In this document: one piece after another, positions 37,040-64,000 of the stretch
How positions within the stretch are numbered: the stretch's first letter is position 1
Layout of the letters: each line of letters opens with the position of its first letter
DNA from: Elusimicrobiota bacterium
Lineage (GTDB): Bacteria > Elusimicrobiota > Elusimicrobia > UBA1565
Reading direction: 5' to 3'
Assembly: GCA_041660925.1 (NCBI GenBank)
Contig: JBAZVI010000002.1
Coordinates: 19,906 to 83,905 of the forward strand
Length of the DNA stretch: 64,000 nt
Notes under the pieces: generated by a model
Told to the model about the DNA's origin: nothing
What the model saw: only the letters and a program-made list of their open reading frames with translations
Database searches by the model: none
Program-made: the position numbers and the translations under genes

Positions 37040-37348
37040 GGGGATACCCTCCATGGATAGTATGGGGTATAGACATACATATGTCAATATGTCCCAAAGC
37101 CATCTCCCCACCCCGATCATCCCCCCTCCTGCGGTCTTCAAATAGGATACGTACGGGAACGCAATAAGTTCCATTTGAGATATGAATATTTGGCGGACGC
37201 CTTCGGCCCTGCCCCGCGAATCTGGAACTTTCCCACGCCTCGGCGCGTACTCCCTATATGGATGCAGCGGCGTCAGATACAGCGGCGTCAGGCACCGCAA
37301 CTTTCGGAACTTATTGGGGGTGCGCGGGGATAAGCGCGGGCCTGTGCT

Positions 37349-37648
37349 CGCTAGGAGTCCGTCCGAGTAATAGCGTATTCCCCGGAGGCCCTCAGCCTGA
37401 GCCGTGCGCAAGGCGTGACGAGCGAGCATAGCTTCGCTATGTGAGCGAGGAGCAACGCGGCGCACGGCCGGGATGGGGCCTCCCGCTCCTCCTCGTATCC
37501 TCGTCGGAGGAGCGGGTCGCGCGCTATTGGGCTCCTCCTTCGTTGCTCGTCGCTTACAGGCCTTCAGGCCTGCGCGCTCCTCGCGCCTCGGCTCGCTCCA
37601 ACAGCGCGCGACCGGAGAACACGCTATTACTCGGACGGACTCCTAGCG
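37349..37648. repeat. 300-bp element bounded by 28-bp perfect terminal inverted repeats (candidate MITE or structured RNA)
   Basis: cgctaggagtccgtccgagtaatagcgt at 37349-37376 is the exact reverse complement of acgctattactcggacggactcctagcg at 37621-37648; interior holds further hairpins; no credible ORF. Confidence 0.45.
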
Positions 37649-37906
37649 GCTGCGTGAGCGCAAGTCTCGAAAGTTGCAAAAGTTGACGTCTGACCCCATC
37701 AGGATCACCTCAGTGAAAGTTCCATATCTCCCCTTCCTGCGAGTTCGCACTATCGGACTCCTCATTGCGTGCGATCGCGGCACTATCAGGGATGGGGTGC
37801 CGCCGAAGGGGCAGGGGAAGGGGGCTCTTTCCTCCCCGCGTACGGTCCTGACGCTATGGGTCGGGGTGTCGGTGAAGAGGGCGATGCGGGGGCGGGAGGT
37901 GGAGGG

Positions 37907-39535
37907 TCAGCGGTACTTGCCGCGGGCGACGGGCATGCGCCGGCCGATGCCGAAGGCCTTTCCGGTGATCTTCACTCCGGGAGCGGCCTGGCGGCGCTTG
38001 TACTCGGTGCGGTCGATGCGGTCGAGCACGTCGAGGACGAGGGCCTTGCGGTGTCCCCGGCGGACGATGGCGTCGAGCGTGCGGCCCTCCTCGACGTAGG
38101 CGCGCATGATGTCGTCGAGGACCTCGTAGTCGGGGAGGTCGTCCTGGTCCTTCTGTCCCGGCTTGAGCTCGGCCGAGGGGGCCTTGCGGATGGAGCTCTC
38201 GGGGATGCGCTCCCCTCCGCGGTTGATGAAGCGCGCGAGCTCGTAGACCGTGGTCTTGGGCACGTCCGAGATGAGGGAGAGCCCCCCCGCCATGTCGCCG
38301 TAGAGCGTGCAGTAGCCCACCGAGCACTCCGACTTGTTCCCCGTCGAGAGCAGCAGCGCCCCGCGCTGGTTGCTCAGCGCCATGAGGAGCATCCCGCGCA
38401 GGCGCGCCTGGACGTTCTGCTCGACGAGCGAGCCCGGCGCGGCGGTCTCTCCGAGCGCCCCGAGCGCGGCCTGGTGGATGGGGTTGATGGGGAGCATCAC
38501 CGTCTCGACGCCGAGGTTGCGCGCGAGGGCGAGCGCGTCGTCGACGCTCCCTTTGCTGGAGTACTTCGAGGGCATGAGGACGCCGAGCACGTTGCCCGGG
38601 CCGAGGGCGTCGGCCGCGAGCGTGCAGACGAGAGCCGAGTCGATGCCGCCGCTCAAACCCACGACGGCGCGGGTGAAGCCGCACTTGCGCGCGTAGTCGC
38701 GCAGGCCGAGCAGCAGGGCTTTGTAGATCTCCTCGGTCTCTCCCTCCGCGCGCAGGGCGATGGCCGGCGCGGCGGCGTCCGGGTCGACGAGGACGAGGTC
38801 CTCCCCGAAGCCGCGGGCGAGCGCGACGAGGCGTCCCTTCGCGTCGAGCGCCATGCTCGCGCCGTCGAAGACGAGCTCGTCGTTGCCGCCGACGAGGTTG
38901 CAGTAGAGGAACGGGAGGCGGTGGCGCCGGGCCTGGCTGCGCAGCATCTTCAGGCGGAAGCCGCGCTTGCCGCGGTAGTAGGGCGAGGCGGAGAGGTTGA
39001 GGAGGAGGTCCGCCTTGGCCCGGGCGAGCGCCGCGACCGGGTCGCGGTCATAGAGCGGCTTCTCCCAGAAGGAGCGGTCGTTCCAGGCGTCCTCGCAGAC
39101 GGTGACGCCGAGGCGGCGGCCTTCGAAGGGGATGGGTTCGTTGCGCGGGGAGGGCTCGAAGTAGCGGCCCTCGTCGAAGACGTCGTAGGTCGGGATGAGG
39201 GTCTTGAAGCGCCGGGCGGCGACCTTCCCGCGGTGCAGGAGGGCGGCGGCGTTGAAGAGGGCCTTGCCGCGGCCGCGGTTGGGCTCGGCGTAGCCTACGA
39301 GCATCGCGGTCCGGCGGGAGGCGCGGGCGAGCTCCCCGAGGGCCTTGAGGTTCGCGCGCACGAAGTCGGGCTGGTAGAGCAGGTCCCCCGAGGGGTAGCC
39401 GGGGATGCACAGCTCGGGGAAGAGCACGAGTCCGGCCCCGCGGCGCTCGGCCTCGGCGTAGGCGTGCAGGATGCGGTCGCGGTTCCCTCGGATGTCTCCG
39501 ACGGTGGTGTCGAGCTGGGCGAGCGCGACCTTCAT
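37907..39535 (-). CDS. nadE: glutamine-dependent NAD+ synthetase (N-terminal CN-hydrolase domain + C-terminal synthetase domain)
   Basis: 542 aa; nitrilase-like N-terminus (MKVALAQLDTTVGDI..., LFPELCIPGYP) and NAD synthetase PP-loop GLSGGIDS. Confidence 0.9.
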   Translation of the reverse strand: MKVALAQLDTTVGDIRGNRDRILHAYAEAERRGAGLVLFPELCIPGYPSGDLLYQPDFVRANLKALGELARASRRTAMLVGYAEPNRGRGKALFNAAALLHRGKVAARRFKTLIPTYDVFDEGRYFEPSPRNEPIPFEGRRLGVTVCEDAWNDRSFWEKPLYDRDPVAALARAKADLLLNLSASPYYRGKRGFRLKMLRSQARRHRLPFLYCNLVGGNDELVFDGASMALDAKGRLVALARGFGEDLVLVDPDAAAPAIALRAEGETEEIYKALLLGLRDYARKCGFTRAVVGLSGGIDSALVCTLAADALGPGNVLGVLMPSKYSSKGSVDDALALARNLGVETVMLPINPIHQAALGALGETAAPGSLVEQNVQARLRGMLLMALSNQRGALLLSTGNKSECSVGYCTLYGDMAGGLSLISDVPKTTVYELARFINRGGERIPESSIRKAPSAELKPGQKDQDDLPDYEVLDDIMRAYVEEGRTLDAIVRRGHRKALVLDVLDRIDRTEYKRRQAAPGVKITGKAFGIGRRMPVARGKYR

Positions 39536-39975
39536 CCGCGCAGTTCGCGGCAGAGGTCGGCGAAGATCCCGCCCGCGCCCATGAAGGCCGACTCGATCTC
39601 GTTCTGGACGGCGACGATGACGGGCGGCTGGACCATCTTCATGACCCGCGCGACGCCCTGCAGGCCCCAGGTGAGCATCTCCTGGGGGTCGATGCCGACG
39701 TCCTGGGCGGCGTCGGCGGTGCGGCGGAGGATGAAGACCGCGGACATCGGCAGCTCGCGCTCGATGAGGAGGATCCCGGCCAGAGAGCCGGCGACGACCT
39801 GGCGCACGATCTCGTCGGGGGCCTGCTTCGCGTCGCGGGTACCCTTGATGGCCGCCACGATGGTGCGTTTGACGAGGTCCGCCGTCTTGTCGGGGGCGTC
39901 CGGGACGCCCTTGAACTGGGAGACGACGATCTCCCGGGAGAGCTTCTCGAAATCGTAGGCGTTTTCAGCGTCCAT
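39532..39975 (-). CDS. hypothetical protein (147 aa)
   Basis: Trimmed from ORF 39532..40533 to ATG at 39973-39975 (MDAENAYDFEKL...); stop overlaps nadE start (ATGA); upstream part of the ORF is antisense to the divergent lipoprotein gene. Confidence 0.55.
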   Translation of the reverse strand: MDAENAYDFEKLSREIVVSQFKGVPDAPDKTADLVKRTIVAAIKGTRDAKQAPDEIVRQVVAGSLAGILLIERELPMSAVFILRRTADAAQDVGIDPQEMLTWGLQGVARVMKMVQPPVIVAVQNEIESAFMGAGGIFADLCRELRG

Positions 39976-40011
39976 CGCCTGTAATATACAAAAAAGTATC
40001 ATGTAGCCATC

Positions 40012-40605
40012 ATGACCGGGTCCCTGCGGCGGCTCCTCCTGCTGGCGGCGGCGCTCCCCGTGCTCGCCTGCGCGAACCCGCCGAACTTCGTGAAGAAGAC
40101 CCCCGTGCTGAGGACGCTCTACCGTCCCCCCTTCAAGCCGTACCTCGACAGCCCGGTCTTCTCCTTCGAGATCCGCCGCTCCTGGACGGGCCCCGAGCCC
40201 GTCGCCGGCGGGACGCGCTATCGCTCGAAGGACGGCGCGTCGACCATCGAGGTGGCCTTCCACGCCGAGAACGCGAAGGGCTGGCGGCCCGTCGCGGAGC
40301 TCCGCCGGGACATGGCCGCCTGGGGCTCGGTCGAGGACACGCACACCGTCGTCCCCGTTCGGGTCTCCACCGCGAGCGCCTACCGCGTCGCCTTCACGAG
40401 CTACGAATACGACCCCGAGTACCTGCTCGGCGCGAGTTCCCGCGTCACCTTCACGGACTTCGTGCTCGTGCCGGACCCCGAAGGGATCATCGTCGCCCGC
40501 CTGCGCGTACCCAAGGGCGACTATGAGCGCCACTTGCGGACCTTCAACGAACTCCTGCGCTCGATGGTCATCCGCACCGTGACGTCGGCCGCCGCCGAGG
40601 AGTGA
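40012..40605 (+). CDS. hypothetical lipoprotein
   Basis: 197 aa; signal peptide ending in a lipobox-like LAC (LLLAAALPVLACANPP); no family recognised. Confidence 0.6.
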   Translation: MTGSLRRLLLLAAALPVLACANPPNFVKKTPVLRTLYRPPFKPYLDSPVFSFEIRRSWTGPEPVAGGTRYRSKDGASTIEVAFHAENAKGWRPVAELRRDMAAWGSVEDTHTVVPVRVSTASAYRVAFTSYEYDPEYLLGASSRVTFTDFVLVPDPEGIIVARLRVPKGDYERHLRTFNELLRSMVIRTVTSAAAEE

Positions 40606-40633
40606 GCGGGGCGTTCCGACGGGCCCCGCTCAC
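40602..40633 (+). terminator. stem-loop overlapping the lipoprotein stop codon (terminator-like, no U-tract)
   Basis: gtgagcggggc-loop-gccccgctcac, 11-bp perfect stem. Confidence 0.4.
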
Positions 40634-40847
40634 TCCCCTCACCCCCGCCCCCTCGCCGGCACCCCGACGCTGATAGTGCCGCAGACCGGACGCTTGCGGA
40701 ACCTGTAGTCCGGTCGCCCGCGTGGCGGTAGAGGGGAGGTAGTTTAACGGCGGGGCGTTCCGACGGGTCCCCGGGGGCCCTTGGGCCCACCTTGCGCAAG
40801 GCCTCCCGACCCTTCATCCCGGGCGCATCGCCGGCTATCCTGAGGAC

Positions 40848-41384
40848 ATGGGCCTCACGCTGTGGCCGCGCACACGGGCGGGCGGGAAGGCGGAGAACCG
40901 CCGCGACCATCGCCACTTCTGCGACTTCAAGCTCTCGCTGCTGGACGGTTCCCGCCGCTCCGTCCCCCGCCCGGCGTTCCTCACCGACATGAGCCGCTCC
41001 GGCCTCGGCCTGCGCACGGACCTCCCCTTCTCCGTGGGCGACAAGCTGGGCGTCCAACTCGCGCTCGCGGGCGGCCGGCGCATCGACGCCTCGTGCACGG
41101 TGCGCTGGACGCGTTCGGAGGGCTTCCTCAACTCCTACGGTCTCGAGTTCGAGGGGCTCGCCCGACGCGACCGGGCAGGCATCGCCTCTCTGCTCGAGCC
41201 GGCGCCCGAAGTCGACCGCGTGGGGCTGTTCCTGCAGGCCGGCGCGAGCATCGTCCTCGTCCTGGTCTTCGCCGACCTCATGGCCGGCAGCGACGCCGTG
41301 CGCTCCTCCGTCGTCGGAGCCCTCCCCTACGTCCTCATCTTCGGCGGCTGCCTCGCCGGGCTCTGGGCCTCTTTCCGGTCGTAA
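40848..41384 (+). CDS. PilZ-domain protein with C-terminal membrane segment
   Basis: 178 aa; PilZ motifs RRDHR (RxxxR) and DMSRSGLGL (DxSxxG); hydrophobic C-terminus. Confidence 0.65.
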   Translation: MGLTLWPRTRAGGKAENRRDHRHFCDFKLSLLDGSRRSVPRPAFLTDMSRSGLGLRTDLPFSVGDKLGVQLALAGGRRIDASCTVRWTRSEGFLNSYGLEFEGLARRDRAGIASLLEPAPEVDRVGLFLQAGASIVLVLVFADLMAGSDAVRSSVVGALPYVLIFGGCLAGLWASFRS

Positions 41385-41488
41385 GAGCGCCCGAAACGTG
41401 ATTGTCGCGTTTGGGACCCATATAGGCCTTTAGTCCCATGTCGTCATGGGCCGTTCGGGGCACGCTATCCCTGACGGGAGGGCGCGCC

Positions 41489-41896
41489 ATGGCGGAAACG
41501 GATCGGCGCCGGCATCACCGATACGACCAGGAAGTCAGCGTACAGCTGCGGGGCCAGAACCCCTGCAGCGTCCTCCATGTCATCGATATCAGCATGGGCG
41601 GCCTGGGGTTCCAGCTCTCCGAGCCCCTGAAGGTCGGACAGAAGATCGCCTTCCGCATGGACCTCCCCGCAGGACCCGTGGACGGAGTCGCGGTCGTCCG
41701 CTGGCTCGCCCCCCACCATCTGGGCTGGCGCTGCGGCGTGGAGCTCCGGGACCCGGGCTACCTCGCCCGGCGGCGCATGCGCCTCTTCCTGGAGCCCTGG
41801 TCCTTCAACGCCCTGCGCGTCTTCGACCGCCTTCTCATCGTGCTCGCGCCGACCATCCTCGCGCTGGCCATCCTCGACTCGGTCTTCAGTCGTTGA
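41489..41896 (+). CDS. PilZ-domain protein with C-terminal membrane segment
   Basis: Trimmed from ORF 41438..41896 to ATG at 41489 (MAETDRRRHHRY...) with GGGAGGG 6 nt upstream; PilZ motifs RRRHHR and DISMGGLGF. Confidence 0.65.
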   Translation: MAETDRRRHHRYDQEVSVQLRGQNPCSVLHVIDISMGGLGFQLSEPLKVGQKIAFRMDLPAGPVDGVAVVRWLAPHHLGWRCGVELRDPGYLARRRMRLFLEPWSFNALRVFDRLLIVLAPTILALAILDSVFSR

Positions 41897-41911
41897 ACCG
41901 CTGACGCAACA

Positions 41912-41948
41912 GGGAAGCCCTTGGCACGAAGGGCTTCCCTCTTTGTCC
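41912..41948 (+). terminator. intrinsic terminator after the second PilZ gene
   Basis: 11-bp perfect stem gggaagccctt/aagggcttccc with 6-nt loop, followed by tctttgtcc. Confidence 0.6.
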
Positions 41949-41965
41949 GGGAGGAGACGACGGGT

Positions 41966-42955
41966 CTAGAAGTTTTCCCTGCAGCGGGGGTCGAGCGCGT
42001 CCATGAGGAACGGCAAAGGGCCCTGCGGGGTGACTCGGAAGCCCCAGCGCTCGTGGCCCCAGAGCGGCTCCTTCGTCGTGTAGGCGAGGACGAAGGGGCT
42101 GCCTCCCCGGGTGGGGTCGTAGGCCACGAACTCGAGCGCGCGGGTCTCCGCCATGAGGACGTTGGGCATCGCGACGCAGCCCCCGAGCATGTCTTTCCCT
42201 TCGAAGAGCCGCATGCAGCGGCGGTAGGTCTGGGAGACCTGCGTGCCCTCGACGAGGAGGAAAGCGTCCTTGAGCCCCTTCACGCGCAGGCGCGAGCCGA
42301 AGTCGATCTTCATCTGCAGGCGCAGAGGGTCGGGGTCGGCCGCGAAGTTCCGGCCCTCGTCGTCGCCCGGCTTCACGGCGAAGGAGCCGGTCTTGAGGTC
42401 CTCCACGTTCGCCTTGCGGATGGCGAAGTCGAGGCGCTGGTAGATGCTCTCGCGGACCTCGTTCTTGAGGGCGTAGAAGTGCGCCTTGGAGAGGTCGAAC
42501 GCCGCGTTCTCCTTGAGGAGGATGGCGACGACGGGGGTCCCGACCGTCGCGAAGGCCTCCCGGCTCTCCCCCTTGAGCCACCAGGCGCGCACGCGGGAGG
42601 GCTTGCGGTCCGTGCACGCGGCTCCCCAGTTGGCGCTCGACTTCGCGGCCGTGAACTCCTCGATGCCCGCGCTGCCGATGACGAGGAGGCGGCTGCCCTT
42701 GGCGATGCGGCCCTTTCCCGCGCTCCGGTCGAGGAGCAGCCAGCGCCCGTCGAACGCGTAGACCGGGAAGATGTTCGAAGAGGAGCGCCGCGGTTCGGCG
42801 GTCTTCGGGTTTCCGGCGACGACGTCCCCCACCGTGTAGAGCGTCCCGTCGACGCCGCGGGCTTGGGGCCGCCCGTCGTCCATCCCGACGTAGCCGGTCT
42901 CGGCGGCGCAGGGCGCGGCGAGGACGGCGAGGAGCGCGAGGAGGCGGAGGATCAT
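41966..42955 (-). CDS. hypothetical secreted protein
   Basis: 329 aa; signal peptide MILRLLALLAVLAAPCAAE; no family recognised. Confidence 0.6.
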   Translation of the reverse strand: MILRLLALLAVLAAPCAAETGYVGMDDGRPQARGVDGTLYTVGDVVAGNPKTAEPRRSSSNIFPVYAFDGRWLLLDRSAGKGRIAKGSRLLVIGSAGIEEFTAAKSSANWGAACTDRKPSRVRAWWLKGESREAFATVGTPVVAILLKENAAFDLSKAHFYALKNEVRESIYQRLDFAIRKANVEDLKTGSFAVKPGDDEGRNFAADPDPLRLQMKIDFGSRLRVKGLKDAFLLVEGTQVSQTYRRCMRLFEGKDMLGGCVAMPNVLMAETRALEFVAYDPTRGGSPFVLAYTTKEPLWGHERWGFRVTPQGPLPFLMDALDPRCRENF

Positions 42956-42987
42956 GACCGGATTCTAACAAACTCCGCGGGAGGACA

Positions 42988-43818
42988 TCACGGCGCCGCG
43001 TCGGGCGGGGCGAAGGCCGTGAGGAAGGCGTCGAAGGCGTCCTTCTCTCCGGAGAAGGCCTCGCGGGGGGCGCGCAGGCGCAGCGCGTAGAAGCCTCCGC
43101 CGCGGATGGGGCGCAGGTGGACGCTCTCGCGCTCCACCTTGCGGGTCGAGCCGTACTGCCACTCGTCGCGGGCCATGATGCGCAGGCGGTACATGCTCGG
43201 CTTCGGGATGTCCGGGACCTGCTCGCCCTCGGCCATCGCCATCAGGATGCCGGTCCCGAAGCAGGTGGAGACTACCTGCCGCTGCACGGGACTCAGGCGG
43301 GAGCGGAACTCCGCGAGGTCCCCCTCGCCGGCCTTGAGGCTCCGGTAGCGGCGCAGGGTGCGCCAGGCGTCGAGCTCGATGCAGCGGTAGAGCCGGTAGG
43401 CGTCGCCGCCTTTGGGGAAGCGGCGGGATTCGAAGAAGCTCAGGCGGGGAGGCGAGGGCGAGGTGCCCAGCGTCTCCGCGTACGGATCGCCCTGCTGGAC
43501 CTGGCGGGTGAAGGTCTCGACGTCGATGCCCTCGTAGAGCTCGAAGGCGCGGCCCCCGATCTTCCGGACGGCGCGGCGCGCGCCGGCGCCGAGGTTGCGC
43601 GCGAAGACGGCGGGGTCGCCGTCGGGGTCCTCCGCCGCGTAGCGCTCGACGATGAGCGCGGCCTCCCCGTCGTGCAGCCGCTTGGAGAAGACGGCGACGA
43701 TCGGCGCGCCGAGCCGGGCGTCGCTGGCCTTGTAGCCTTCGGGCGGCGTCAGGGTGATCGGGGCGGCGGTCGAAAGGAGCGTGGAGGTTGCGAGGACGAC
43801 GGCGGCGAGGGCTTCCAT
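42988..43818 (-). CDS. hypothetical secreted protein
   Basis: Trimmed from ORF 42988..45036 to ATG at 43816-43818 (MEALAAVVLATSTLLSTAAP..., signal-like); no family recognised. Confidence 0.55.
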   Translation of the reverse strand: MEALAAVVLATSTLLSTAAPITLTPPEGYKASDARLGAPIVAVFSKRLHDGEAALIVERYAAEDPDGDPAVFARNLGAGARRAVRKIGGRAFELYEGIDVETFTRQVQQGDPYAETLGTSPSPPRLSFFESRRFPKGGDAYRLYRCIELDAWRTLRRYRSLKAGEGDLAEFRSRLSPVQRQVVSTCFGTGILMAMAEGEQVPDIPKPSMYRLRIMARDEWQYGSTRKVERESVHLRPIRGGGFYALRLRAPREAFSGEKDAFDAFLTAFAPPDAAP

Positions 43819-43844: not shown

Positions 43845-45158
43845 TTACTGGCCAGCAGCCAGTAACTCGCCCGTGCGTGCATCGAACACCGCCCAGCCCT
43901 CGCCGGGGGTGACGACGGCCACGCGCAGGCCGTCGGCGCTGTAGACGATGCGCGTGCCGGTGGCCGGGTGGATGAGCCCCTCGCGGGCCCACTCGGCGAA
44001 GCGCCGGCGCAGCCAGGGCTCCCCGTCGTGGAGCACGAACCAGCCGTCGCGCGTGCGCCACCACCAGCGGTCCTGATGGCGCACCATCCGAGGACTTCCG
44101 CTCGTCGGCGTCCACCAGCGCGCGCCCTTGCGGATGAGCCAGGCCCAGCGGCCCTCCCGGCCAGCGCCCCAGGCCGCGCCCGCGTGCAGCCACGCGGCGT
44201 TCTTCCCCGCGTGCCAGTGCGGCTTGCGCGCGCCGCCGTCGGCGGCGCGCCAGGCCGCATAGGCCGGTTCGGCGTCCGGCGGCTCGAGGCGCTCGATGAA
44301 GGCCGGCGGCGGGACGCTCGCGCGTACCGGCGTCCCGTCGGGCAGGGCCGCCGGGGTGAGCGCCCTGAGGTGGGCGAAGCTCGGCGCGGCGAGCTTCCCC
44401 GTCGGCGGGTCGAAGGGGTCCTTCCCCAGCCAGTGCTTGAGGGTCGGCGGCCGGAACTCGAAGGGACGACTCTTCTTCGCAGGCTTCGACGCGGCCTTCT
44501 TCGGGGCGCGCAGGGCCGCGAGCAGGGGCTCCGGCAGCGGCGCCATCCGGCCCTCGAAGTCCGCGCGGGCCTCGACCGCTTCGACTTCGCGCCAATCGTC
44601 GATGTCGGTCCCGTGCGTGGAGCCGCCGTTGCGGCGGTGTCCAGCTCTCTGTCCGCGCACGCGCTCGGAGGAGGCTCCTCCTGAAGCGTGGGAGTCCCCC
44701 CCCGCTTGCGCGGGGGCATCCGCATCGTTGGCGCGCGTCCATTCCCCCGCCCGGGATGCGCGGGCCGACAGGTCCGAGAAGGCCCCCGCGCCCACGGCGT
44801 CGCGCAGAGCTTCTCCTTCGCGCGGACGGGCGGAGTCCGTCGCGCGGGCCCGGGCCGAGCTGTGCTCTGAGAGCCGGGCGAGCGCCCGCTCGAGCCGAGT
44901 CAGGTCCTCGCGGTAGAAGGCTTCCACCCGCTCGGGAGTAGGCGACGACGCCTCCGGACGGGGCGGGTTTGGCACCGCGCCCTTCCTCGGCGGAGCGCCC
45001 GGCAGCAGCGAACGCAGCGCGCTCAATGTCCGGCAATCGCTCAGGAAGGGCGGCAGGTCGTTTTCGGGGAGCAGGAGCAGGGCGAACGAGAGCCCCGCCA
45101 GCAGGCCGCCCAGTCCGGCCGCCGCTTTGCGCCTCCAGGAGACCTCTCCGAAGGGCAT
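43845..45158 (-). CDS. hypothetical membrane-anchored protein with Trp-rich C-terminal domain
   Basis: 437 aa; N-terminal TM helix, long Ala/Arg/Ser-rich low-complexity region, W-rich C-terminal domain; coding status partly uncertain in high-GC DNA. Confidence 0.45.
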   Translation of the reverse strand: MPFGEVSWRRKAAAGLGGLLAGLSFALLLLPENDLPPFLSDCRTLSALRSLLPGAPPRKGAVPNPPRPEASSPTPERVEAFYREDLTRLERALARLSEHSSARARATDSARPREGEALRDAVGAGAFSDLSARASRAGEWTRANDADAPAQAGGDSHASGGASSERVRGQRAGHRRNGGSTHGTDIDDWREVEAVEARADFEGRMAPLPEPLLAALRAPKKAASKPAKKSRPFEFRPPTLKHWLGKDPFDPPTGKLAAPSFAHLRALTPAALPDGTPVRASVPPPAFIERLEPPDAEPAYAAWRAADGGARKPHWHAGKNAAWLHAGAAWGAGREGRWAWLIRKGARWWTPTSGSPRMVRHQDRWWWRTRDGWFVLHDGEPWLRRRFAEWAREGLIHPATGTRIVYSADGLRVAVVTPGEGWAVFDARTGELLAAGQ

Positions 45159-45236: not shown

Positions 45237-45902
45237 TCAGTGAAGGGGCGGTTTGGGAGGTCCTTCGAGCTTCGTCAGGCGCGCATCGTGGCTTCGGATC
45301 GTCTTCCCGTGCTCGGAGAGGATGTGGTCGTTCATGATGGTCTTCTCGTCGTTGCTCGCCATCCGCTGGAGGGCGACGCGGATGTAGTCCTTGAGCTCCG
45401 CGAAGTCCTTCTTCGTGGTGAACTCCGTGCGCATCGCCTTCAATTCTTTTTGAAGGGAGACGACCATCCCAGCGATGCGGTTGGTGATGGCCTTGTGGCT
45501 TTCCCCATCGGCCCTCAGCCAGCTGACATCGGTCTTCAGCGTGCTGACATCGGCTTTCAGGGTGCTGATGTCGGCTTTCATGGGCGCAAGTTCAGTCTTC
45601 GTCGCCATGTCTGCGATGTCCCGCTTCATGGCGATGCCAAGCTGCTGGATGTCATTCTTGGTCGCGATGGCCAGCGCTTGCAGATCGCGCTTGGACGCGG
45701 TGGAGAGTGCTTGCAGATCGCGCTTGGTCGCGGTGGAGAGTGCTTGCAGATCGCGCTTGGTCGCGGTGGAGAGTGCTTGCAGATCGCGCTTGGTCGCGGT
45801 GGAGAGCGCTTGCAGATCGCGCTTGGACGCGGTGGAGAGTGCTTGCAGATCGCGTTTGGTGGCGGGAGCGTTGAGTTCGGCGCTCTTCATGTCGTCTTCC
45901 AT
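45237..45902 (-). CDS. coiled-coil protein with six 11-residue tandem repeats (TKRDLQALSTA)
   Basis: Trimmed from ORF 45237..45995 to ATG at 45900-45902 (MEDDMKSAELN...) with AAGAGGGGAA upstream; repeats encoded by 33-bp tandem DNA repeats. Confidence 0.6.
   Translation of the reverse strand: MEDDMKSAELNAPATKRDLQALSTASKRDLQALSTATKRDLQALSTATKRDLQALSTATKRDLQALSTASKRDLQALAIATKNDIQQLGIAMKRDIADMATKTELAPMKADISTLKADVSTLKTDVSWLRADGESHKAITNRIAGMVVSLQKELKAMRTEFTTKKDFAELKDYIRVALQRMASNDEKTIMNDHILSEHGKTIRSHDARLTKLEGPPKPPLH
45676..45873. repeat. 33-bp tandem repeat, about six copies, in-frame within a CDS
   Basis: Unit gcttgcagatcgcgcttgg(a/t)cgcggtggagag(t/c) repeated head-to-tail, last copy degenerate. 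Confidence 0.85.
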
Positions 45903-46042
45903 GGTAGCAGTTCCCCTCTTTTCGGATAAGGGCCCAAGGTCCCATACTTGCCCGGGTCTGCCCAAGTTACGATTGAGAGGTGCGAATAGTTCCATTGAGG
46001 GAAGCGCGGCCGGACGGGAGAAGGGATGAAAGCTGATGCTCC

Positions 46043-46183
46043 CTAGCGGGAGCGCGAGCTCTTCAGGTCCAGCTCGAAGGCGATCTTCGAACGATTCTCC
46101 CAGAAATGCGCCATCTTCTGCCTTGCCGACTTGCGGGGACGCGCAGAAGAGGCCGCGGCTTTTCTTGGTCGAGAGGCGGTCAT
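46043..46183 (-). CDS. hypothetical small basic protein (46 aa)
   Basis: ATG overlaps gmd stop (ATGA); Arg/Lys-rich; could equally be non-coding. Confidence 0.2.
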
Positions 46184-47190
46184 TTCTTTATGAGCTTGTC
46201 GGGGTCGAGGCCGGCGAGTTTGAGGTCCTCGCGCACCATGAGGCGCACGAGCTCCTTGAAGCCCACCTTCGGCTTCCAGCCCAGGGCCTTGCGCGCCTTG
46301 GAGGCGTCGCCGATGAGGAGGTCCACCTCGGTCGGGCGCAGGTAGCGCGGGTCGTAGCGGACGAAGTCCTTCGGGTCGAGCTCGACGAGCCCGAAGGCCT
46401 CGTCGAGGAACTCGCGCACGGTGTGGGTCTCGCCGGTGGCGATGACGAAGTCGTCGGCCTTGGGCTGCTGGAGCATGAGCCACATCGCCTCGACGAAGTC
46501 CTTGGCGTAGCCCCAGTCGCGCTTGGAGTCGAGGTTCCCCAGGTGCAGGTGTTCCTGCTTCTTGGCCAGGATGTTGGCCAGCGCCATCGTGATCTTGCGG
46601 GTCACGAAGGTCCCGCCGCGGCGCGGGGACTCGTGGTTGAAGAGGATGCCGTTGGCGGCGTAGATGCCGTACGCCTCGCGGTAGTTCACCGTGGTCCAGT
46701 AGGCGTAGACCTTGGCGCAGGCGTAGGGGCTGCGCGGGTAGAAGGGCGTGGCCTCCGTCTGCGGCACCTGCTGCGCCTTGCCGAACATCTCGGAGCTCGA
46801 GGCCTGGTAGAAGCGCGTCGGGATGCCCGTGTCGCGGATGGCGTCGAGGAGGCGGGTCGTGCTCAGGCCCGTCACGTCGCCGGTGTACTCGGGAGTGTCG
46901 AAGCTCACGCGCACGTGGCTCTGGGCGCCCAGGTGGTAGATCTCGTCGGGCACGAGCTTGCGCAGGATGTGGTTCAGGCCCGAGGAGTCGCTCAAGTCCC
47001 CGTAGTGCAGGAAGAGCTTCACGCCCTCGGTGTGCGGGTCGCGGAAGATGTGGTCGATGCGCTCGGTGTTGAACGAGCTCGAGCGCCGGATGACCCCGTG
47101 CACCTCGTAGCCCTTCTCCAGCAGGAGCTCCGCCAGATAGGACCCGTCCTGCCCCGTGATGCCCGTGATCAGCGCCTTTTTCGTTGCCAT
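46180..47190 (-). CDS. gmd: GDP-mannose 4,6-dehydratase
   Basis: 336 aa; [20 protein letters not shown]-terminus and SDR catalytic YACAK motif typical of Gmd. Confidence 0.9.
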
Positions 47191-47225
47191 GTCGTCCGCG
47201 ATTCTAGCAGTTTTCGTCCGAGGAG

Positions 47226-47462
47226 CTACTCGAGTGGAAGCGAATCGATAGTGGCAGGCGGGGAGTCTAAACCGGCGAGGAAACGCGCTACGAATTTTGC
47301 AGCGATGAGCCCGGCGAGCAGGATGAGGATAAGTCGGAGTTGCGTGGCGTGGAAGCGCCGCACCTTCATGTACTTCTTGTAGACGACACCGTCGCGCGTG
47401 ACCTTCCCGATGAATTTGCGACGGTATAATACGCGTTCCCAGCGGGAAGAGGGCATAGGCAC
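47226..47462 (-). CDS. hypothetical small membrane protein (78 aa)
   Basis: ORF track only; one hydrophobic helix; lower-GC region. Confidence 0.35.
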
Positions 47463-47532
47463 ATTTCTCTGTTGTCTCTCTCCGTTTGGAGCGAGAGTCG
47501 GATGTGCGCGGAAGGACGGTGCATCCTACAAA

Positions 47533-48687
47533 TTACAGGAGCATCTCTTCATCCCGATGGCATGGGAGCGTCGAGGGCTTTGATTTCTGCTCATGCAATA
47601 GTGCTAGCTCATGTCCGCGTCGAAGCATCGGCCGCTCAAGCAGATAGAAACTGATTGTGGCGCAGATGAACGCCGCAAGGACGTTCAAAGGGAATGCCTG
47701 TGCGAGACCCAGCGGCCGTCCTGCGAGCTCCGACCCGCTTACGAGGAATATCTGTTGCCAGAGGTAGAGGCCGTAAGAGATTCTCCCTACCCAGCGCAGC
47801 CACGGCAATTCCAGCATGCGACCTGCCAAGGTGTGGGGATTCAGCATCGTGCATGCGACCAGCGCGGCAGCGGATATCCCAAGGAGCATCGTCATGAGCG
47901 GAGGACGAAAGATGACGATCGCAAAGAAGCCGAAGAAAAGGAGTGGGAACTTCGATGGGGAAAGGACGCGTCGGGAGCGTGCTAGCCACGTGGGATACTC
48001 GAATAGAATCGCGGTGAGGCATCCCCAAAGCAGGCCGTCGAACCTCAGATCCGTCCGTGCGGAGCGGTTGAGGCCGGGTATAAACGCATCGACGATCCCG
48101 AATTGCCCATCGAGATTCCTCCAGATCGGGAGAATGAGTACGGCAAGAACGAGAGCGGTCCTTCCATTCCGTATGCCCAGCATCGCGAGACATACAGGCC
48201 AAAGCAAGTAGAACTGTTCTTCGATGGATAGCGACCATATGTGCGCGGTGTACCATCCGTGTCCCGGCGCATATGTGAGCAGGTTGCGAATGTGGAGAAG
48301 ACAAGTCATCCATTCTCCGCGAGAGACATTCACTCCAAAGAGTATCGAGATAACCGCCAAAATGAATAGGAATAACGCGTATGCGGGGATGATTCGGAAT
48401 GCTCGACGGAGATAAAAAGGCAGAAGGGCGAAATCTCCGATTTTCCGTTTATCGCGTATCAGTCTGTTCGTGATGAGAAAACCACTGAGCGTAAAAAAAA
48501 GGTCCACCCCGCAACTGCCGTTGCGCAGGATATTATCGAAAATCCAGGAGAGGACTCTGCCGGGTGGGGTCGGCATGGCTGCGCTGGCATGGGCGACCAA
48601 GACGAGGAGTATAGCGACGCCTCTCCATCCATCCAAAGTCGGGAGATGCCCTTGTAAGAATGAACGCGCATCCTTTTCGCGTTGCAT
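47533..48687 (-). CDS. acyltransferase family 3 membrane protein (OafA/OatA-like O-acyltransferase)
   Basis: Trimmed from ORF 47533..49065 to ATG at 48685-48687 (MQREKDARSFLQGHLPTLDGWRGVAILLVLVAH...); polytopic, acyltransferase-3-like N-terminal motif. Confidence 0.7.
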   Translation of the reverse strand: MQREKDARSFLQGHLPTLDGWRGVAILLVLVAHASAAMPTPPGRVLSWIFDNILRNGSCGVDLFFTLSGFLITNRLIRDKRKIGDFALLPFYLRRAFRIIPAYALFLFILAVISILFGVNVSRGEWMTCLLHIRNLLTYAPGHGWYTAHIWSLSIEEQFYLLWPVCLAMLGIRNGRTALVLAVLILPIWRNLDGQFGIVDAFIPGLNRSARTDLRFDGLLWGCLTAILFEYPTWLARSRRVLSPSKFPLLFFGFFAIVIFRPPLMTMLLGISAAALVACTMLNPHTLAGRMLELPWLRWVGRISYGLYLWQQIFLVSGSELAGRPLGLAQAFPLNVLAAFICATISFYLLERPMLRRGHELALLHEQKSKPSTLPCHRDEEMLL

Positions 48688-48689
48688 CG

Positions 48690-49739
48690 CTAGAAGATGC
48701 GGCTTCGGAATACGAGGATCTGATAGGGGCGCATAAGATGGCGCCCGCCCATCTCGATCAGGAGTTCCGGCAGGTAGCGGCGCGGCTCGAAGAGCGGGAT
48801 CCAGTGCCGATCGAAGAGTGCCTGCGGGCATTCGATGTAGCGGCTGGTGGTATTCGCGATGACGATGTAGTCGCGCAGGCGGTAGCGCCAGGCTTTCGCC
48901 TTGAGGCCAGCGGCGAGGTTTGCAAACGGAGGCGGCTTCGGAGTTCCTTTCTCGAGGATCGGCCGCATAACGGCGAGTTCCCGGACCACCCAGGTCAGGG
49001 CGAACCATAGCGCGGGAGCGTCGGAGAGTACCGCTCCATTCGGCCGGCGGTAGGTGTAGAACCAAAGGCCCTTTGCCCCTTCGAGAATGGCGTGATAACT
49101 CATGAACCGGAGCTCAAGAATGTCAGGGAAGCGGCCGATGGCCGGTTTCCCCGACGGGGGTTTTAGATAATCGCGCCAATCCATCGCTTGCAGAACCGCC
49201 CATACCGGCTTCCCATTTGCTGCGGCGACGGTCATCCTCACCTGTTCACCTAGTGATTCGAGGGGCCGATGGGGCACTGGGTACCAATCCACCATCAGGG
49301 CGTCGCCGCTGGCCGAGTAGCGCTCGGCGGAAGCTCCCCGACCGACGACGAAGGCCGTGGGCGCTCCGTGGGACCAGCCCTTCACTTTACGCTCGAAGGC
49401 GGCGAGCTCTTCCGGAGGGGTCCTGGCGACGTCGGGTTCGTCCTGGAGATACCAGGCGGCGAGTGGGAACCCTTTCGTCGAGACGGTGGAGGTCAGAAGT
49501 TCGTGTGGATGGACGAGAATCCGCATCCGCTCCTTCCGAGCCGCCGATGCAATCGCGTGGAGGGTCGAGGGCTCCCGCGAATAACTCTGGAGCGCGTTGA
49601 AACCTTCCCTGCTCAGTAGCGCGACGGCAGCCGGGTCGTCGACCCCAAATAGGCCGAGCGGGAACCATTGCCCCGGGGCGGACGGTTTTCGAGAGCAGCC
49701 GCAGGTTATGATGAGAAGTCCGATGAAGAGTCTCTTCAC
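48690..49739 (-). CDS. hypothetical lipoprotein/secreted protein
   Basis: From ORF 48690..49826; likely GTG start at 49737-49739 overlapping capD stop (GTGA), giving a signal-like N-terminus KRLFIGLLIITCGC. Confidence 0.55.
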   Translation of the reverse strand: MKRLFIGLLIITCGCSRKPSAPGQWFPLGLFGVDDPAAVALLSREGFNALQSYSREPSTLHAIASAARKERMRILVHPHELLTSTVSTKGFPLAAWYLQDEPDVARTPPEELAAFERKVKGWSHGAPTAFVVGRGASAERYSASGDALMVDWYPVPHRPLESLGEQVRMTVAAANGKPVWAVLQAMDWRDYLKPPSGKPAIGRFPDILELRFMSYHAILEGAKGLWFYTYRRPNGAVLSDAPALWFALTWVVRELAVMRPILEKGTPKPPPFANLAAGLKAKAWRYRLRDYIVIANTTSRYIECPQALFDRHWIPLFEPRRYLPELLIEMGGRHLMRPYQILVFRSRIF

Positions 49740-51598: not shown

Positions 51599-51673
51599 GG
51601 TCGCAGAACTCGAGGTATCTCGGGTGCCGAGCCGTTCGGCTCGGGTGAGCATATCCGGCGGATAGAGGAGTAT

Positions 51674-56247: not shown

Positions 56248-56269
56248 GGAGGGATTCGCTCTAGCGTAG

Positions 56270-57298: not shown

Positions 57299-57432
57299 CG
57301 GTCCTCCCGCCTCGCCGGATGCTCCATGCTGTTCGTGAAATCGTACAAAATTGCCTCTTCGATGAGGCAATCCCGTCCGACTCAGTTTGATGCAGCTATA
57401 AGGTAAGAGAGAACGGGCGGCATGCCGTCAAC

Positions 57433-62792: not shown

Positions 62793-62840
62793 TCAGTAAT
62801 GTCCCGAAATCATTTTGAAGGGAAGTCTTGTCGCCGGATG

Positions 62841-63905: not shown

Positions 63906-64000
63906 CGAGAGTAGAAGACGCTAGGCGTTCTCATGGGAGTCCTTGGGCGCGTGGTCATGTCGTTGTCCTGCTGGAAAGATTCCAAAGGAGGAGCTCCTTC

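What the first reader, a model, noticed from the sequence alone, without database searches (positions are those of the whole stretch)
40012..41896. Lipoprotein followed by two tandem PilZ-domain proteins with C-terminal membrane segments
Two adjacent small proteins each have RxxxR and DxSxxG PilZ motifs plus a hydrophobic C-terminus and share a terminator. This suggests a duplicated membrane-tethered c-di-GMP receptor pair, with an upstream lipoprotein of unknown function; their output is not obvious from context.
Basis: partly seen in the sequence, partly recalled or inferred. Interest (0 to 1): 0.45.

Follow-up and report, generated by a model that had tools for sequence, protein, structure and literature searches.

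The report
Membrane-anchored PilZ pair with lipoprotein
Two neighbouring small genes of an uncultured Elusimicrobiota bacterium encode membrane-anchored sensors of the bacterial signal c-di-GMP, next to a gene for an exported lipoprotein; the trio is conserved in related bacteria, but it is a modest variation on a well-known sensor family and what it controls is unknown.

Summary
Window 40012-41896 holds three real genes on the + strand. The first is a 197-aa lipoprotein. The other two are small PilZ proteins, each scoring 46 bits against Pfam PilZ (cut-off 22.5). Both keep intact RxxxR and DxSxxG motifs and have hydrophobic C-termini: two helices in PilZ-A, one in PilZ-B.

The organism is an Elusimicrobiota MAG. 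PilZ-A belongs to a small family, roughly 30 full-length cluster representatives among 1.84 billion, built as PilZ plus a C-terminal two-helix membrane hairpin. The order lipoprotein, PilZ, PilZ recurs in ten of twelve lineages examined. In distant lineages both PilZ proteins keep two helices.

PilZ-A has its own conserved promoter-like element: a TAnnnT hexamer exactly 6 nt before the start codon. The lipoprotein gene ends in a hairpin, so the two are probably separate transcripts.

The surrounding 16 kb of core genes is syntenic too, so adjacency is weak evidence of a shared function. No GGDEF, EAL or HD-GYP gene lies in the window.

Most likely this is a heteromeric inner-membrane c-di-GMP receptor acting on a membrane or envelope partner. 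It is a new variant of a known kind, of modest interest.

The parts
39983..40002 (.). AT-rich divergent promoter region between the 147-aa gene (- strand) and the lipoprotein gene. It holds TATATT on the - strand (39983-39988), 7 nt before the 147-aa gene's ATG, and TATCAT on the + strand (39997-40002), 9 nt before the lipoprotein ATG.
   Evidence: Sequence read; hexamer scan. The consensus sigma-70 scan found no full promoter, so this is inferred.
40012..40605 (+). Exported lipoprotein, 197 aa. Signal peptide with lipobox VLAC, conserved mature N-terminus CANPPxFV[KR][KR]TPVLR and invariant YDPEYLLG motif. The predicted fold is a PsbP/Mog1/LpqN/DcrB-like alpha-beta-alpha sandwich.
40599..40637 (+). 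14-bp GC-rich hairpin overlapping the lipoprotein stop codon, with no U-tract. It may be a terminator or an mRNA-stabilising stem.
   Evidence: Fold dG -32.8 kcal/mol, z -5.3.
40606..40767 (+). Strain-specific insertion of about 155-160 nt in the lipoprotein/PilZ-A spacer, bounded by an 18-nt direct repeat GCGGGGCGTTCCGACGGG (40606-40623 and 40750-40767). It is not part of the conserved module.
   Evidence: Absent in the 87%-identical relative L002. Repeat expected 0.03 times by chance. Four other assemblies carrying identical sequence (three different samples) break inside or just after it.
40808..40841 (+). Conserved promoter-like element of PilZ-A: a GACCCTT box (40808-40814, overlapping a -35-like TTCATC) and a -10-like TATCCT (40836-40841) exactly 6 nt before the ATG. 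This suggests a leaderless or near-leaderless transcript.
   Evidence: In the alignment of ten lineages the A and the final T of TAnnnT are invariant, and the 6-nt spacing holds in 8 of 10.
40848..41384 (+). PilZ-A, 178 aa. Cytoplasmic PilZ domain (residues 16-116, nt 40893-41195) followed by a C-terminal hairpin of two membrane helices (residues 124-147 and 149-177, nt 41217-41378).
   Evidence: Pfam PilZ 46.1 bits. Hydropathy. AF2 pLDDT 89.4. Foldseek matches to solved PilZ domains. Family alignment with invariant R18, R22, G52, W87 and P160.
41476..41482 (+). Shine-Dalgarno GGGAGGG for PilZ-B, with no -10-like hexamer upstream. This is consistent with co-transcription with PilZ-A.
   Evidence: Sequence; hexamer scan.
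41489..41896 (+). PilZ-B, 135 aa (the alternative start 41438 gives 152 aa). Cytoplasmic PilZ domain (nt 41501-41755) plus a single C-terminal membrane helix (nt 41831-41887), leaving only 2 residues (SR) beyond the hydrophobic segment.
   Evidence: Pfam PilZ 46.3 bits. Hydropathy 2.44. Public gene call of 135 aa. Orthologue alignment with invariant R7, R11, S35 and G38.
41911..41948 (.). 12-bp hairpin plus CUCUUUGU between the convergent PilZ-B and 329-aa genes; a likely bidirectional terminator.
   Evidence: dG -34.2 (+ strand) and -32.1 (- strand) kcal/mol, z about -3.2 to -3.3. Not called by the consensus scan.

Best explanation
Shown:
- The locus encodes two paralogous small proteins. Each has an N-terminal canonical PilZ domain with all c-di-GMP-contacting motifs intact.
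- Each PilZ domain is followed directly by C-terminal hydrophobic helices: a two-helix hairpin in PilZ-A and one helix in PilZ-B.
- A gene for an exported lipoprotein with a PsbP/LpqN/DcrB-like fold lies immediately upstream.
- The three genes recur together in a clade of Elusimicrobiota.

Inferred topology: the PilZ domains face the cytoplasm, because c-di-GMP is cytoplasmic. Only about 12 residues of PilZ-A (between the two conserved prolines, S[ND]P ... [LF]P) reach the periplasmic face. For PilZ-B only 2 to 4 residues do.

Inferred mechanism: PilZ-A and PilZ-B are made from one leaderless bicistronic transcript and assemble in the inner membrane as a three- or four-helix heteromer. c-di-GMP binds to the RxxxR/DxSxxG sites and re-orients the barrels relative to the post-barrel helix, as in BcsA and Alg44. 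That changes the packing of the membrane helices and so switches a partner that is itself in the membrane or at its outer face.

The most likely partner is the neighbouring lipoprotein. Its strongly conserved N-terminal stretch, right after the lipidated Cys, would sit at the membrane surface. The effect would be to carry the cytoplasmic c-di-GMP level to an envelope process (inside-out signalling).

My confidence by step:
- About 0.85 that these are membrane-anchored c-di-GMP receptors.
- About 0.6 that A and B act together.
- About 0.35 that the lipoprotein is the direct partner.
For: PilZ identity:
- Pfam scores are twice the cut-off for both proteins.
- RxxxR is invariant and [D/N]xSxxG nearly so across 32 PilZ-A relatives (23-87% identical to the window protein): R18 32/32, R22 32/32, D/N47 32/32, S49 29/32, G52 32/32.
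- The same motifs are conserved across 9 PilZ-B relatives.
- The AF2 model (pLDDT 89.4) has a barrel, a helix and a helical hairpin.
- Its best structural matches are c-di-GMP-bound PilZ domains of BcsA, Alg44, MotI and MapZ.

Membrane anchoring:
- Hydropathy is 1.9-2.4 over 19 residues in the window proteins and the L006/L007 orthologues tested, and the hydrophobic C-terminal segments are retained in all ~30 aligned relatives.
- P160 at the start of helix 2 is as invariant as the ligand-binding arginines. D/E143 is kept in 25/32 and P149 in 24/32. This points to more than a passive anchor.

Pairing:
- A second PilZ follows in every locus with enough downstream sequence except L019.
- PilZ-B has a Shine-Dalgarno but no -10 element.

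Lipoprotein link:
- It lies immediately upstream on the same strand in 10 of 12 lineages, down to 22-28% PilZ-A identity.
- No lipoprotein homologue was found away from a PilZ pair.
- Solved relatives of the fold include proteins known, from general knowledge not tested here, to dock on membrane complexes, such as PsbP, LpqN and DcrB.
Against: - No binding, topology or interaction data exist; every mechanistic step is inferred.
- The lipoprotein and PilZ-A appear to be separate transcription units. A hairpin follows the lipoprotein gene, and a conserved -10-like hexamer sits 6 nt before the PilZ-A start.
- One lineage keeps the PilZ pair without the lipoprotein (L017/L018). The most distant member stands alone next to a polytopic membrane protein (L019).
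- Synteny extends over at least 16 kb of housekeeping genes (glyQS, recO, nadE), so adjacency may reflect a conserved core region rather than function.
- All lineages with the module are related, so the co-occurrence counts are not independent.
- The periplasmic exposure of the PilZ proteins is very small.
- The lipoprotein model is only moderately confident: one of five models reached pLDDT 72.9, the other four 31-52, from a 4-sequence alignment.
- No diguanylate cyclase or phosphodiesterase gene lies in the window.
Confidence: 0.55

Rival explanations
1. The PilZ pair is a membrane-anchored c-di-GMP receptor, but the lipoprotein is only a neighbour in a conserved core-genome block. The true partner is encoded elsewhere. 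It could be a polysaccharide synthase or exporter, a pilus or secretion motor, or a transporter that the membrane helices contact within the bilayer.
For: - Separate promoter-like element for PilZ-A and a hairpin after the lipoprotein gene.
- Synteny of the whole region including nadE, glyQS and recO.
- L017/L018 lack the lipoprotein.
- L019 places a family member directly after a 433-aa polytopic membrane protein.
- A polysaccharide biosynthesis cluster starts about 4 kb away at 46 kb.
Against: - The lipoprotein is upstream in 10 of 12 lineages, while other neighbours vary. The 147-aa gene is missing in L007, and the order of the downstream genes differs in L006/L007.
- No lipoprotein homologue was found without the PilZ genes.
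Confidence: 0.3
2. The C-terminal helices are not membrane-spanning. They would be a soluble oligomerisation bundle, as in the tetramer-forming tPilZ proteins, making these cytoplasmic PilZ adaptors.
For: - Helical extensions of PilZ are known to drive tetramer formation (Galperin and Chou preprint 10.1101/814665, read).
- AF2 simply predicts a helical hairpin.
Against: - Hydropathy of 1.9-2.8 over 19-residue windows.
- TM2 carries on average 0.7 charged or polar residues per sequence.
- Basic residues cluster at the extreme C-terminus.
- In tPilZ the helices are an insertion and amphipathic, not a terminal hydrophobic pair.
Confidence: 0.07
3. The PilZ domains are degenerate adaptors that no longer bind c-di-GMP, like Xanthomonas or Pseudomonas PilZ, or they bind another ligand. 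The organism may not make c-di-GMP at all.
For: - No GGDEF, EAL or HD-GYP gene in the 64-kb window.
- No literature on c-di-GMP in Elusimicrobia turned up.
- The most distant member, P0075, has DxGxxG and no precomputed Pfam hit.
Against: - Both motifs are intact and among the most conserved columns in both paralogues across all lineages.
- By the Galperin and Chou analysis, loss of binding goes with loss of these motifs.
- A 64-kb window is about a tenth of one contig, so the absence of cyclases there says little.
Confidence: 0.08

Closest known systems
Alg44 (Pseudomonas aeruginosa alginate co-polymerase; PDB 4RT0/4RT1)
   Same: It has an N-terminal canonical PilZ domain followed by a membrane span. 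It is the best sequence-profile match among solved structures (E 0.0095) and among the top fold matches. In Alg44, c-di-GMP binding in the cytoplasm controls a membrane and periplasmic process (PMC12564702).
   Different: Alg44 continues into a large periplasmic membrane-fusion domain and sits in the alginate operon. The proteins here end 0-4 residues after the last membrane helix, have no periplasmic domain, come as a pair and are not in a polysaccharide operon.
BcsA C-terminal PilZ domain (cellulose synthase; PDB 4P00/5EJ1)
   Same: It is the top Foldseek match. The PilZ barrel is held against the inner membrane next to membrane helices and gates a membrane machine.
   Different: In BcsA the PilZ domain is fused to the enzyme it regulates, and it follows the membrane helices. 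Here PilZ precedes the helices and no enzyme domain is present.
Stand-alone PilZ receptors (MapZ/PA4608, PA0012, MotI/DgrA, YcgR)
   Same: Same small single-domain receptor logic and the same motifs; structural matches.
   Different: Those proteins are soluble and act by docking on CheR1, the flagellar stator or rotor, and similar targets. YcgR and MotI carry an N-terminal PilZN domain that is absent here.
N-terminally anchored PilZ proteins (YcgR-NpzN, Leptospira LIC_20136 and LIC_20173)
   Same: They are membrane-anchored PilZ proteins with a cytoplasmic PilZ domain (PMC12943098; preprint 10.1101/814665).
   Different: Their anchor is N-terminal and comes with extra domains (NpzN, PrsW protease). 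Here the anchor is a C-terminal hairpin or tail anchor, and nothing else is present.
LapD-LapG inside-out signalling
   Same: It serves as the model for a cytoplasmic c-di-GMP signal being passed to a periplasmic protein (PMC3032553 and PMC3032545, listed).
   Different: LapD senses through a degenerate EAL domain and has a real periplasmic output domain that captures a protease. No such domain or protease is found here. The resemblance is functional analogy only.
LpqN, DcrB, PsbP and DUF1795 proteins (PsbP/Mog1-like fold)
   Different: No detectable sequence similarity: no Pfam hit at E up to 1 and no PDB sequence hit. The ligand or partner is unknown.

Membership tests
PilZ domain (Pfam PF07238) | Profile HMM score above the curated gathering threshold | tested here: met
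   PilZ-A 46.1 bits and PilZ-B 46.3 bits against a cut-off of 22.5.
PilZ domain (Pfam PF07238) | RxxxR motif in the N-terminal arm | tested here: met
   RRDHR in PilZ-A and RRHHR in PilZ-B. Both arginines are invariant in 32 PilZ-A relatives and 9 PilZ-B relatives.
PilZ domain (Pfam PF07238) | [D/N]xSxxG motif on the barrel | tested here: met
   DMSRSG and DISMGG. Across 32 relatives: D/N 32/32, S 29/32, G 32/32. S and G are invariant in the PilZ-B set.
PilZ domain (Pfam PF07238) | [quoted passage not shown] | tested here: met
   PilZ-A AF2 model, pLDDT 89.4, with strands in 28-102 and a helix at 106-116. Foldseek probability 1.00 to BcsA, Alg44, MotI and MapZ PilZ domains. PilZ-B was not modelled; it is 28% identical to PilZ-A.
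PilZ domain (Pfam PF07238) | Binds c-di-GMP | not testable with these tools
   Needs a biochemical assay.
Alg44-type PilZ-TM-periplasmic protein | N-terminal PilZ domain followed by a membrane span | tested here: met
Alg44-type PilZ-TM-periplasmic protein | Periplasmic membrane-fusion (HlyD-like) domain after the membrane span | tested here: not met
   The proteins end within 0-4 residues of the last hydrophobic helix, and there is no further Pfam domain at E up to 1.
YcgR/MotI/FlgZ flagellar-brake PilZ proteins | N-terminal PilZN (YcgR_N) domain before PilZ | tested here: not met
   Only 4-21 residues precede the RxxxR motif; there is no PilZN hit.
Tetramer-forming tPilZ | Two-helix insertion forming a soluble helical bundle | tested here: not met
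   The helices are C-terminal and strongly hydrophobic (Kyte-Doolittle 1.9-2.4). The feature is defined in preprint 10.1101/814665.
PsbP/Mog1/LpqN/DcrB-like fold (lipoprotein) | Alpha-beta-alpha sandwich superposable on family members | tested here: met
PsbP/Mog1/LpqN/DcrB-like fold (lipoprotein) | Sequence-profile membership in PsbP, LpqN or DUF1795 Pfam families | tested here: not met
   No Pfam family at E up to 1, none in NCBIfam, and no PDB sequence match.
Bacterial lipoprotein | Signal peptide ending in a lipobox with invariant Cys | tested here: met
   MTGSLRRLLLLAAALPVLAC|ANPP. The Cys is conserved at the end of the hydrophobic segment in the homologues. This is a pattern inspection only; no LipoP or SignalP run.
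Operon of lipoprotein + PilZ-A + PilZ-B | Co-transcription of all three genes | tested here: inconclusive
   Same strand, with spacers of 70-131 nt in other lineages. However, a hairpin follows the lipoprotein gene, and a conserved -10-like hexamer lies 6 nt before PilZ-A. PilZ-B has a Shine-Dalgarno and no hexamer.

The most novel reading that the evidence does not exclude
The PsbP-fold lipoprotein and the two PilZ proteins would form a previously undescribed minimal trans-membrane c-di-GMP relay specific to Elusimicrobiota. Nucleotide binding in the cytoplasm would rearrange a three- or four-helix membrane bundle. The tiny conserved periplasmic turn of that bundle (S[ND]P ... LP) would then capture or release the lipid-anchored N-terminal segment of the lipoprotein. 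This would control an envelope process without any dedicated periplasmic receptor domain.
Probability: 0.15. Interest if true: 0.6.

Novelty: new variant of a known kind. Interest (0 to 1): 0.3.

Why it matters
PilZ receptors are the best-studied c-di-GMP sensors. Almost all the mechanistic knowledge comes from Proteobacteria, Firmicutes and spirochaetes, and a literature search found nothing on c-di-GMP signalling in Elusimicrobia.

This locus defines a compact architecture that is easy to test: a bare PilZ domain welded to a C-terminal membrane hairpin. It is always duplicated and usually lies next to one particular lipoprotein.

If the pair really transmits the c-di-GMP level through a helix bundle with almost no periplasmic part, it would be a minimal model for how PilZ domains move membrane helices. 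That question is also relevant to BcsA and Alg44.

If it does not, the result is still a useful annotation. Two 'PilZ domain-containing proteins' and one 'hypothetical protein' become a named, lineage-specific module. The hypothetical protein gains a fold assignment.

Tried and rejected
- **Rfam.** The whole window at gathering threshold gave nothing. The lipoprotein/PilZ-A spacer at E up to 10 gave only chance microRNA-type matches to the hairpin. So there is no c-di-GMP riboswitch or other known RNA.
- **Paralogy with the downstream 276-aa protein.** I suspected this from a similar C-terminal pattern, but BLASTP shows no similarity to the lipoprotein.
- **Defence-system membership.** No PADLOC hit for the three proteins or four neighbours.
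- **NCBIfam.** Only a sub-threshold match of both PilZ proteins to the Myxococcus paralogous PilZ-type domain TIGR02266: 36 and 28 bits against a cut-off of 68.7.
- **Metagenome scans.** Scans with the broad PilZ-A alignments failed for lack of a conserved 7-10-residue stretch. The narrow alignment found a single extra locus.
- **AFDB fold search.** Not available for the lipoprotein.
- **Word-indexed homologue searches.** They found very few relatives: 2, 1 and 4. The exhaustive HMMER search was needed to see the PilZ-A family.
- **PDB sequence searches.** Searches with the lipoprotein profile, the 147-aa protein and the 329-aa protein gave nothing meaningful.
- **Consensus promoter/terminator scan.** It found no site in 39400-42400. 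The regulatory elements proposed here rest on cross-lineage conservation and folding instead.
- **GGDEF/EAL census.** Possible only inside the window, by motif scan and by Pfam on about 50 genes. None was found.
Full report
**What is there**

The window is about 70% GC up to 46 kb. The interval 40012-41896 holds three + strand ORFs whose codon-position GC pattern (GC3 0.86-0.95, GC2 about 0.5) marks them as real genes:
- a 197-aa protein at 40012-40605;
- a 178-aa protein at 40848-41384, here called PilZ-A;
- a 152-aa ORF at 41438-41896, here called PilZ-B.

Exact-sequence look-ups identify the source as a metagenome-assembled Elusimicrobiota bacterium. There the two small proteins are already labelled 'PilZ domain-containing protein' and the first 'hypothetical protein'.

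PilZ-B most likely starts at ATG 41489, giving 135 aa. That start has a GGGAGGG Shine-Dalgarno at 41476-41482, is the one used in the public gene call, and fits the orthologues.

**Check of the PilZ claim**

- Both proteins hit Pfam PilZ at 46 bits against a cut-off of 22.5 (E about 6e-12), and nothing else in Pfam matches them.
- The RxxxR and DxSxxG motifs are present (RRDHR/DMSRSG and RRHHR/DISMGG).
- A high-confidence AlphaFold model of PilZ-A (pLDDT 89.4, built on a 32-sequence alignment) shows a beta-barrel (28-102), the usual post-barrel helix (106-116) and then two long helices (124-147, 149-177).
- Its best matches among solved structures are the c-di-GMP-bound PilZ domains of BcsA, Alg44, a P. 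aeruginosa PilZ protein, MotI and MapZ.
- By sequence profile the nearest solved protein is Alg44.

**Check of the membrane claim**

Kyte-Doolittle averages over 19 residues reach 2.15 and 1.89 for two segments of PilZ-A and 2.44 for one segment of PilZ-B. PilZ-A ends 3 residues after its second helix, and PilZ-B ends 2 residues (SR) after its only hydrophobic segment. Because c-di-GMP is cytoplasmic, the PilZ domains must be inside. PilZ-A is then an N-in, C-in hairpin and PilZ-B a tail-anchored protein. This topology is inferred.

**The two are old paralogues**

They are 28% identical. Beyond the barrel they share the helix, an LEP linker and the first membrane helix. One PilZ-plus-membrane-helix ancestor was therefore duplicated.

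Each copy has its own orthologues in other MAGs. In the more distant lineages L013, L014 and L015 both copies keep two membrane helices. In the window's sub-clade PilZ-B has lost the second helix.

**The family**

The word-indexed searches found almost no relatives. An exhaustive HMMER search of 1.84 billion cluster representatives with PilZ-A found 81 proteins at E up to 0.001. About 30 of them align over the full length, including both membrane helices.

In a 32-sequence alignment, 23-87% identical to the window protein, the invariant residues are R18, R22, G52, G64, W87, G98 and P160. P160 lies at the start of the second membrane helix. D47, S49, P118 and L129 are nearly invariant. A loop motif S[ND]P (P149 in 24/32) and an acidic residue at the end of helix 1 (D/E143 in 25/32) are common.

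So the ligand-binding residues are under strong constraint, and the membrane part carries specific conserved positions rather than only hydrophobicity. Mean pairwise identity is 0.35 in the barrel and 0.21-0.27 in the helices.

**The lipoprotein**

It has no Pfam, NCBIfam or PDB sequence match. Its N-terminus, MTGSLRRLLLLAAALPVLAC|ANPP, looks like a lipoprotein signal. The Cys, the following stretch CANPPxFV[KR][KR]TPVLR and a YDPEYLLG motif are conserved in homologues.

I take the fold assignment as probable, not certain.

**Conservation of the arrangement**

The order lipoprotein, PilZ, PilZ on one strand recurs in L003/L005, L006, L007, L012, L013, L014 and L015. It also appears, truncated by contig ends, in L002 and L011. 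PilZ-A identity in these loci ranges from 87% down to about 22-28%. No lipoprotein homologue was found elsewhere.

There are two exceptions:
- L017/L018 have the PilZ pair but no lipoprotein.
- The most distant member (L019, 22% identity, DxGxxG) stands alone after a 433-aa polytopic membrane protein.

An important caveat: the neighbourhood is conserved far beyond the trio. NAD synthetase and a 147-aa unknown protein lie divergently upstream. A 329-aa secreted unknown protein lies convergently downstream. In L003 the same glyQ, glyS, recO and response-regulator genes as in the window are present.

NadE is 57-69% identical across these lineages while PilZ-A is 22-44%. The lineages are therefore moderately related and the PilZ genes evolve fast. 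The window itself lies in a region of core housekeeping genes (rnpA-yidD-yidC-jag-mnmE, mnmG-rsmG, the dcw cluster). Adjacency alone is thus weak evidence for functional coupling.

**Transcription units**

A 14-bp hairpin overlaps the lipoprotein stop codon (dG -32.8, z -5.3). Related lineages also have short GC-rich hairpins just after that stop.

Upstream of PilZ-A, an alignment of ten lineages shows conserved non-coding boxes. A GACCCTT box overlaps a -35-like hexamer. A TAnnnT hexamer (TATCCT at 40836-40841) lies exactly 6 nt before the start codon in 8 of 10 lineages. That spacing would place the transcription start at the first base of the start codon, giving a leaderless mRNA. This is inferred.

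PilZ-B has a Shine-Dalgarno and no such hexamer. A 12-bp hairpin with a short U-rich tail follows it. The most economical reading is a monocistronic lipoprotein gene plus a PilZ-A/PilZ-B bicistron, with possible read-through.

In the window the lipoprotein/PilZ-A spacer is 242 nt, against 70-131 nt elsewhere. The difference is a strain-specific insertion of about 155-160 nt.

**How it most likely works**

Both paralogues keep their binding motifs, are probably made from one transcript, share a conserved membrane segment and are kept together in nearly all lineages. I therefore propose that they form a heteromeric three- or four-helix bundle in the inner membrane, with two PilZ barrels on the cytoplasmic face.

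c-di-GMP binding would re-orient the barrels against the post-barrel helix, as described for BcsA and Alg44. It would thereby alter the helix bundle and switch a partner in the membrane or at its outer surface.

The neighbouring PsbP-fold lipoprotein is the leading candidate partner. Its most conserved stretch is the segment right after the lipidated Cys, which would lie at the membrane surface next to the only exposed part of PilZ-A.

The main rival is that the lipoprotein is a bystander and the partner is encoded elsewhere. One candidate is the polysaccharide machinery encoded from 46 kb onward. Another is a transporter, as in L019.

No c-di-GMP cyclase or phosphodiesterase is encoded in the window. 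The rest of the genome could not be examined.

**Comparison with known systems**

The domain is a canonical PilZ domain, and the membership features that could be tested are met.

The architecture resembles Alg44 in having PilZ followed by a membrane span, but it lacks Alg44's periplasmic domain, so it is not an Alg44 family member. It lacks the PilZN domain of YcgR and MotI. It differs from the N-terminally anchored PilZ proteins described in spirochaetes.

The survey of PilZ architectures by Galperin and Chou (preprint 10.1101/814665) mentions a possible N-terminal membrane anchor in one group, but no C-terminal one. Full-text searches did not turn up a description of this architecture or of c-di-GMP signalling in Elusimicrobia. 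I could not consult InterPro architecture tables, so a prior listing of 'PilZ + TM' proteins cannot be excluded.

**Verdict**

The finding is a lineage-specific, uncharacterised variant of a very well-known receptor family, with a conserved gene partner and an unknown output. It is a sound annotation improvement and a reasonable small experimental target, but not a surprise to a specialist. Interest is 0.3.

Noticed in passing
window 40606-40767: An insertion of about 155-160 nt lies in the lipoprotein/PilZ-A spacer and is absent from the 87%-identical relative L002. It is bounded by an 18-nt direct repeat GCGGGGCGTTCCGACGGG, and the first copy forms part of a 14-bp hairpin. Four other assemblies carrying identical sequence (L001, L008, L009, L010, from three different samples) end inside or just after it, which suggests a sequence repeated elsewhere in the genome, such as a small mobile or REP-like element.
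   Followed up: partly
window 37777-37817 and 40642-40682: A 41-nt piece of that insertion (C-rich run, then GGCACCCC..CTGATAGTGCCGC) recurs at 85% identity in inverted orientation just 3' of nadE. The two copies therefore flank the block nadE, 147-aa gene, lipoprotein.
   Followed up: no
window 37100-37900: About 800 nt of apparently non-coding, lower-GC sequence lies between a small RHH-like gene and nadE. It contains a near-perfect 27-nt inverted repeat (GCTAGGAGTCCGTCCGAGTAATAGCGT at 37349-37375 and 37622-37648) enclosing about 245 nt. There is no Rfam match.
   Followed up: no
window 39983-39988 (-), 39997-40002 (+), 40836-40841 (+), about 42962-42967 (-), about 47201-47206 (-): Several first-in-operon genes (147-aa gene, lipoprotein, PilZ-A, 329-aa gene, gmd) have a TAnnnT hexamer only 6-10 nt before the start codon and no Shine-Dalgarno. 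This suggests that leaderless or near-leaderless transcripts are common in this Elusimicrobiota lineage.
   Followed up: partly
window 40768-40847 and the homologous spacers in L002, L003, L006, L007, L011, L012, L015, L017: Besides the -10-like hexamer, the spacer upstream of PilZ-A carries conserved GGNCC-type boxes (GGCCCTTGGGCCCA, AAGGCC, GACCCTT) across lineages whose proteins are only 30-40% identical. They could be an operator for an unknown regulator.
   Followed up: no
window 39532-39975 (-): A 147-aa, apparently all-helical protein with no family match overlaps the start of nadE by 4 nt. It keeps this position in most related lineages (33-41% identity; 97% in the close relative L002), including L017/L018, which lack the lipoprotein. 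It is absent in L007.
   Followed up: partly
window 41966-42955 (-), 42988-43818 (-), 43845-45158 (-): Three exported or membrane proteins with no Pfam, NCBIfam or PADLOC match (329, 276 and 437 aa; the last has a Trp-rich C-terminal region) are conserved next to the PilZ pair in the related MAGs, although their order varies.
   Followed up: partly
window 45586-45865: A 33-nt tandem repeat of about 8 copies at 62-80% identity lies inside a 221-252-aa ORF on the - strand (45237-45995). That ORF has only weak coiled-coil-type Pfam hits.
   Followed up: no
window 46000-64000: GC content drops from about 70% to about 60%, and the genes change to a polysaccharide or glycan biosynthesis cluster, all on the - strand. 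It includes GDP-mannose dehydratase, Polysacc_synt_2, a GT2-dehydrogenase fusion, a cytidylyltransferase, a DegT aminotransferase, GT1, methyltransferases and a SPASM protein. It may be a horizontally acquired or fast-evolving surface-glycan locus.
   Followed up: partly
window 1-30233: A core housekeeping region, all on the - strand: aspS, hisS, a Crp-type cNMP-binding regulator (2908-3603), a PAS histidine kinase, surE, the dcw cluster (murG, ftsW, murD, mraY, murF, murE, ftsI, rsmH, mraZ), rsmG, mnmG, an MFS transporter, mnmE, jag, yidC, yidD and rnpA. Genes of this kind often lie near the replication origin; that placement is my general knowledge and was not tested here.
   Followed up: no
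L019 1161-3069: The most distant PilZ-plus-two-helix family member (P0075, with DxGxxG instead of DxSxxG) stands alone directly after a 433-aa polytopic membrane protein. This hints that proteins of this architecture can pair with integral membrane partners.
   Followed up: partly
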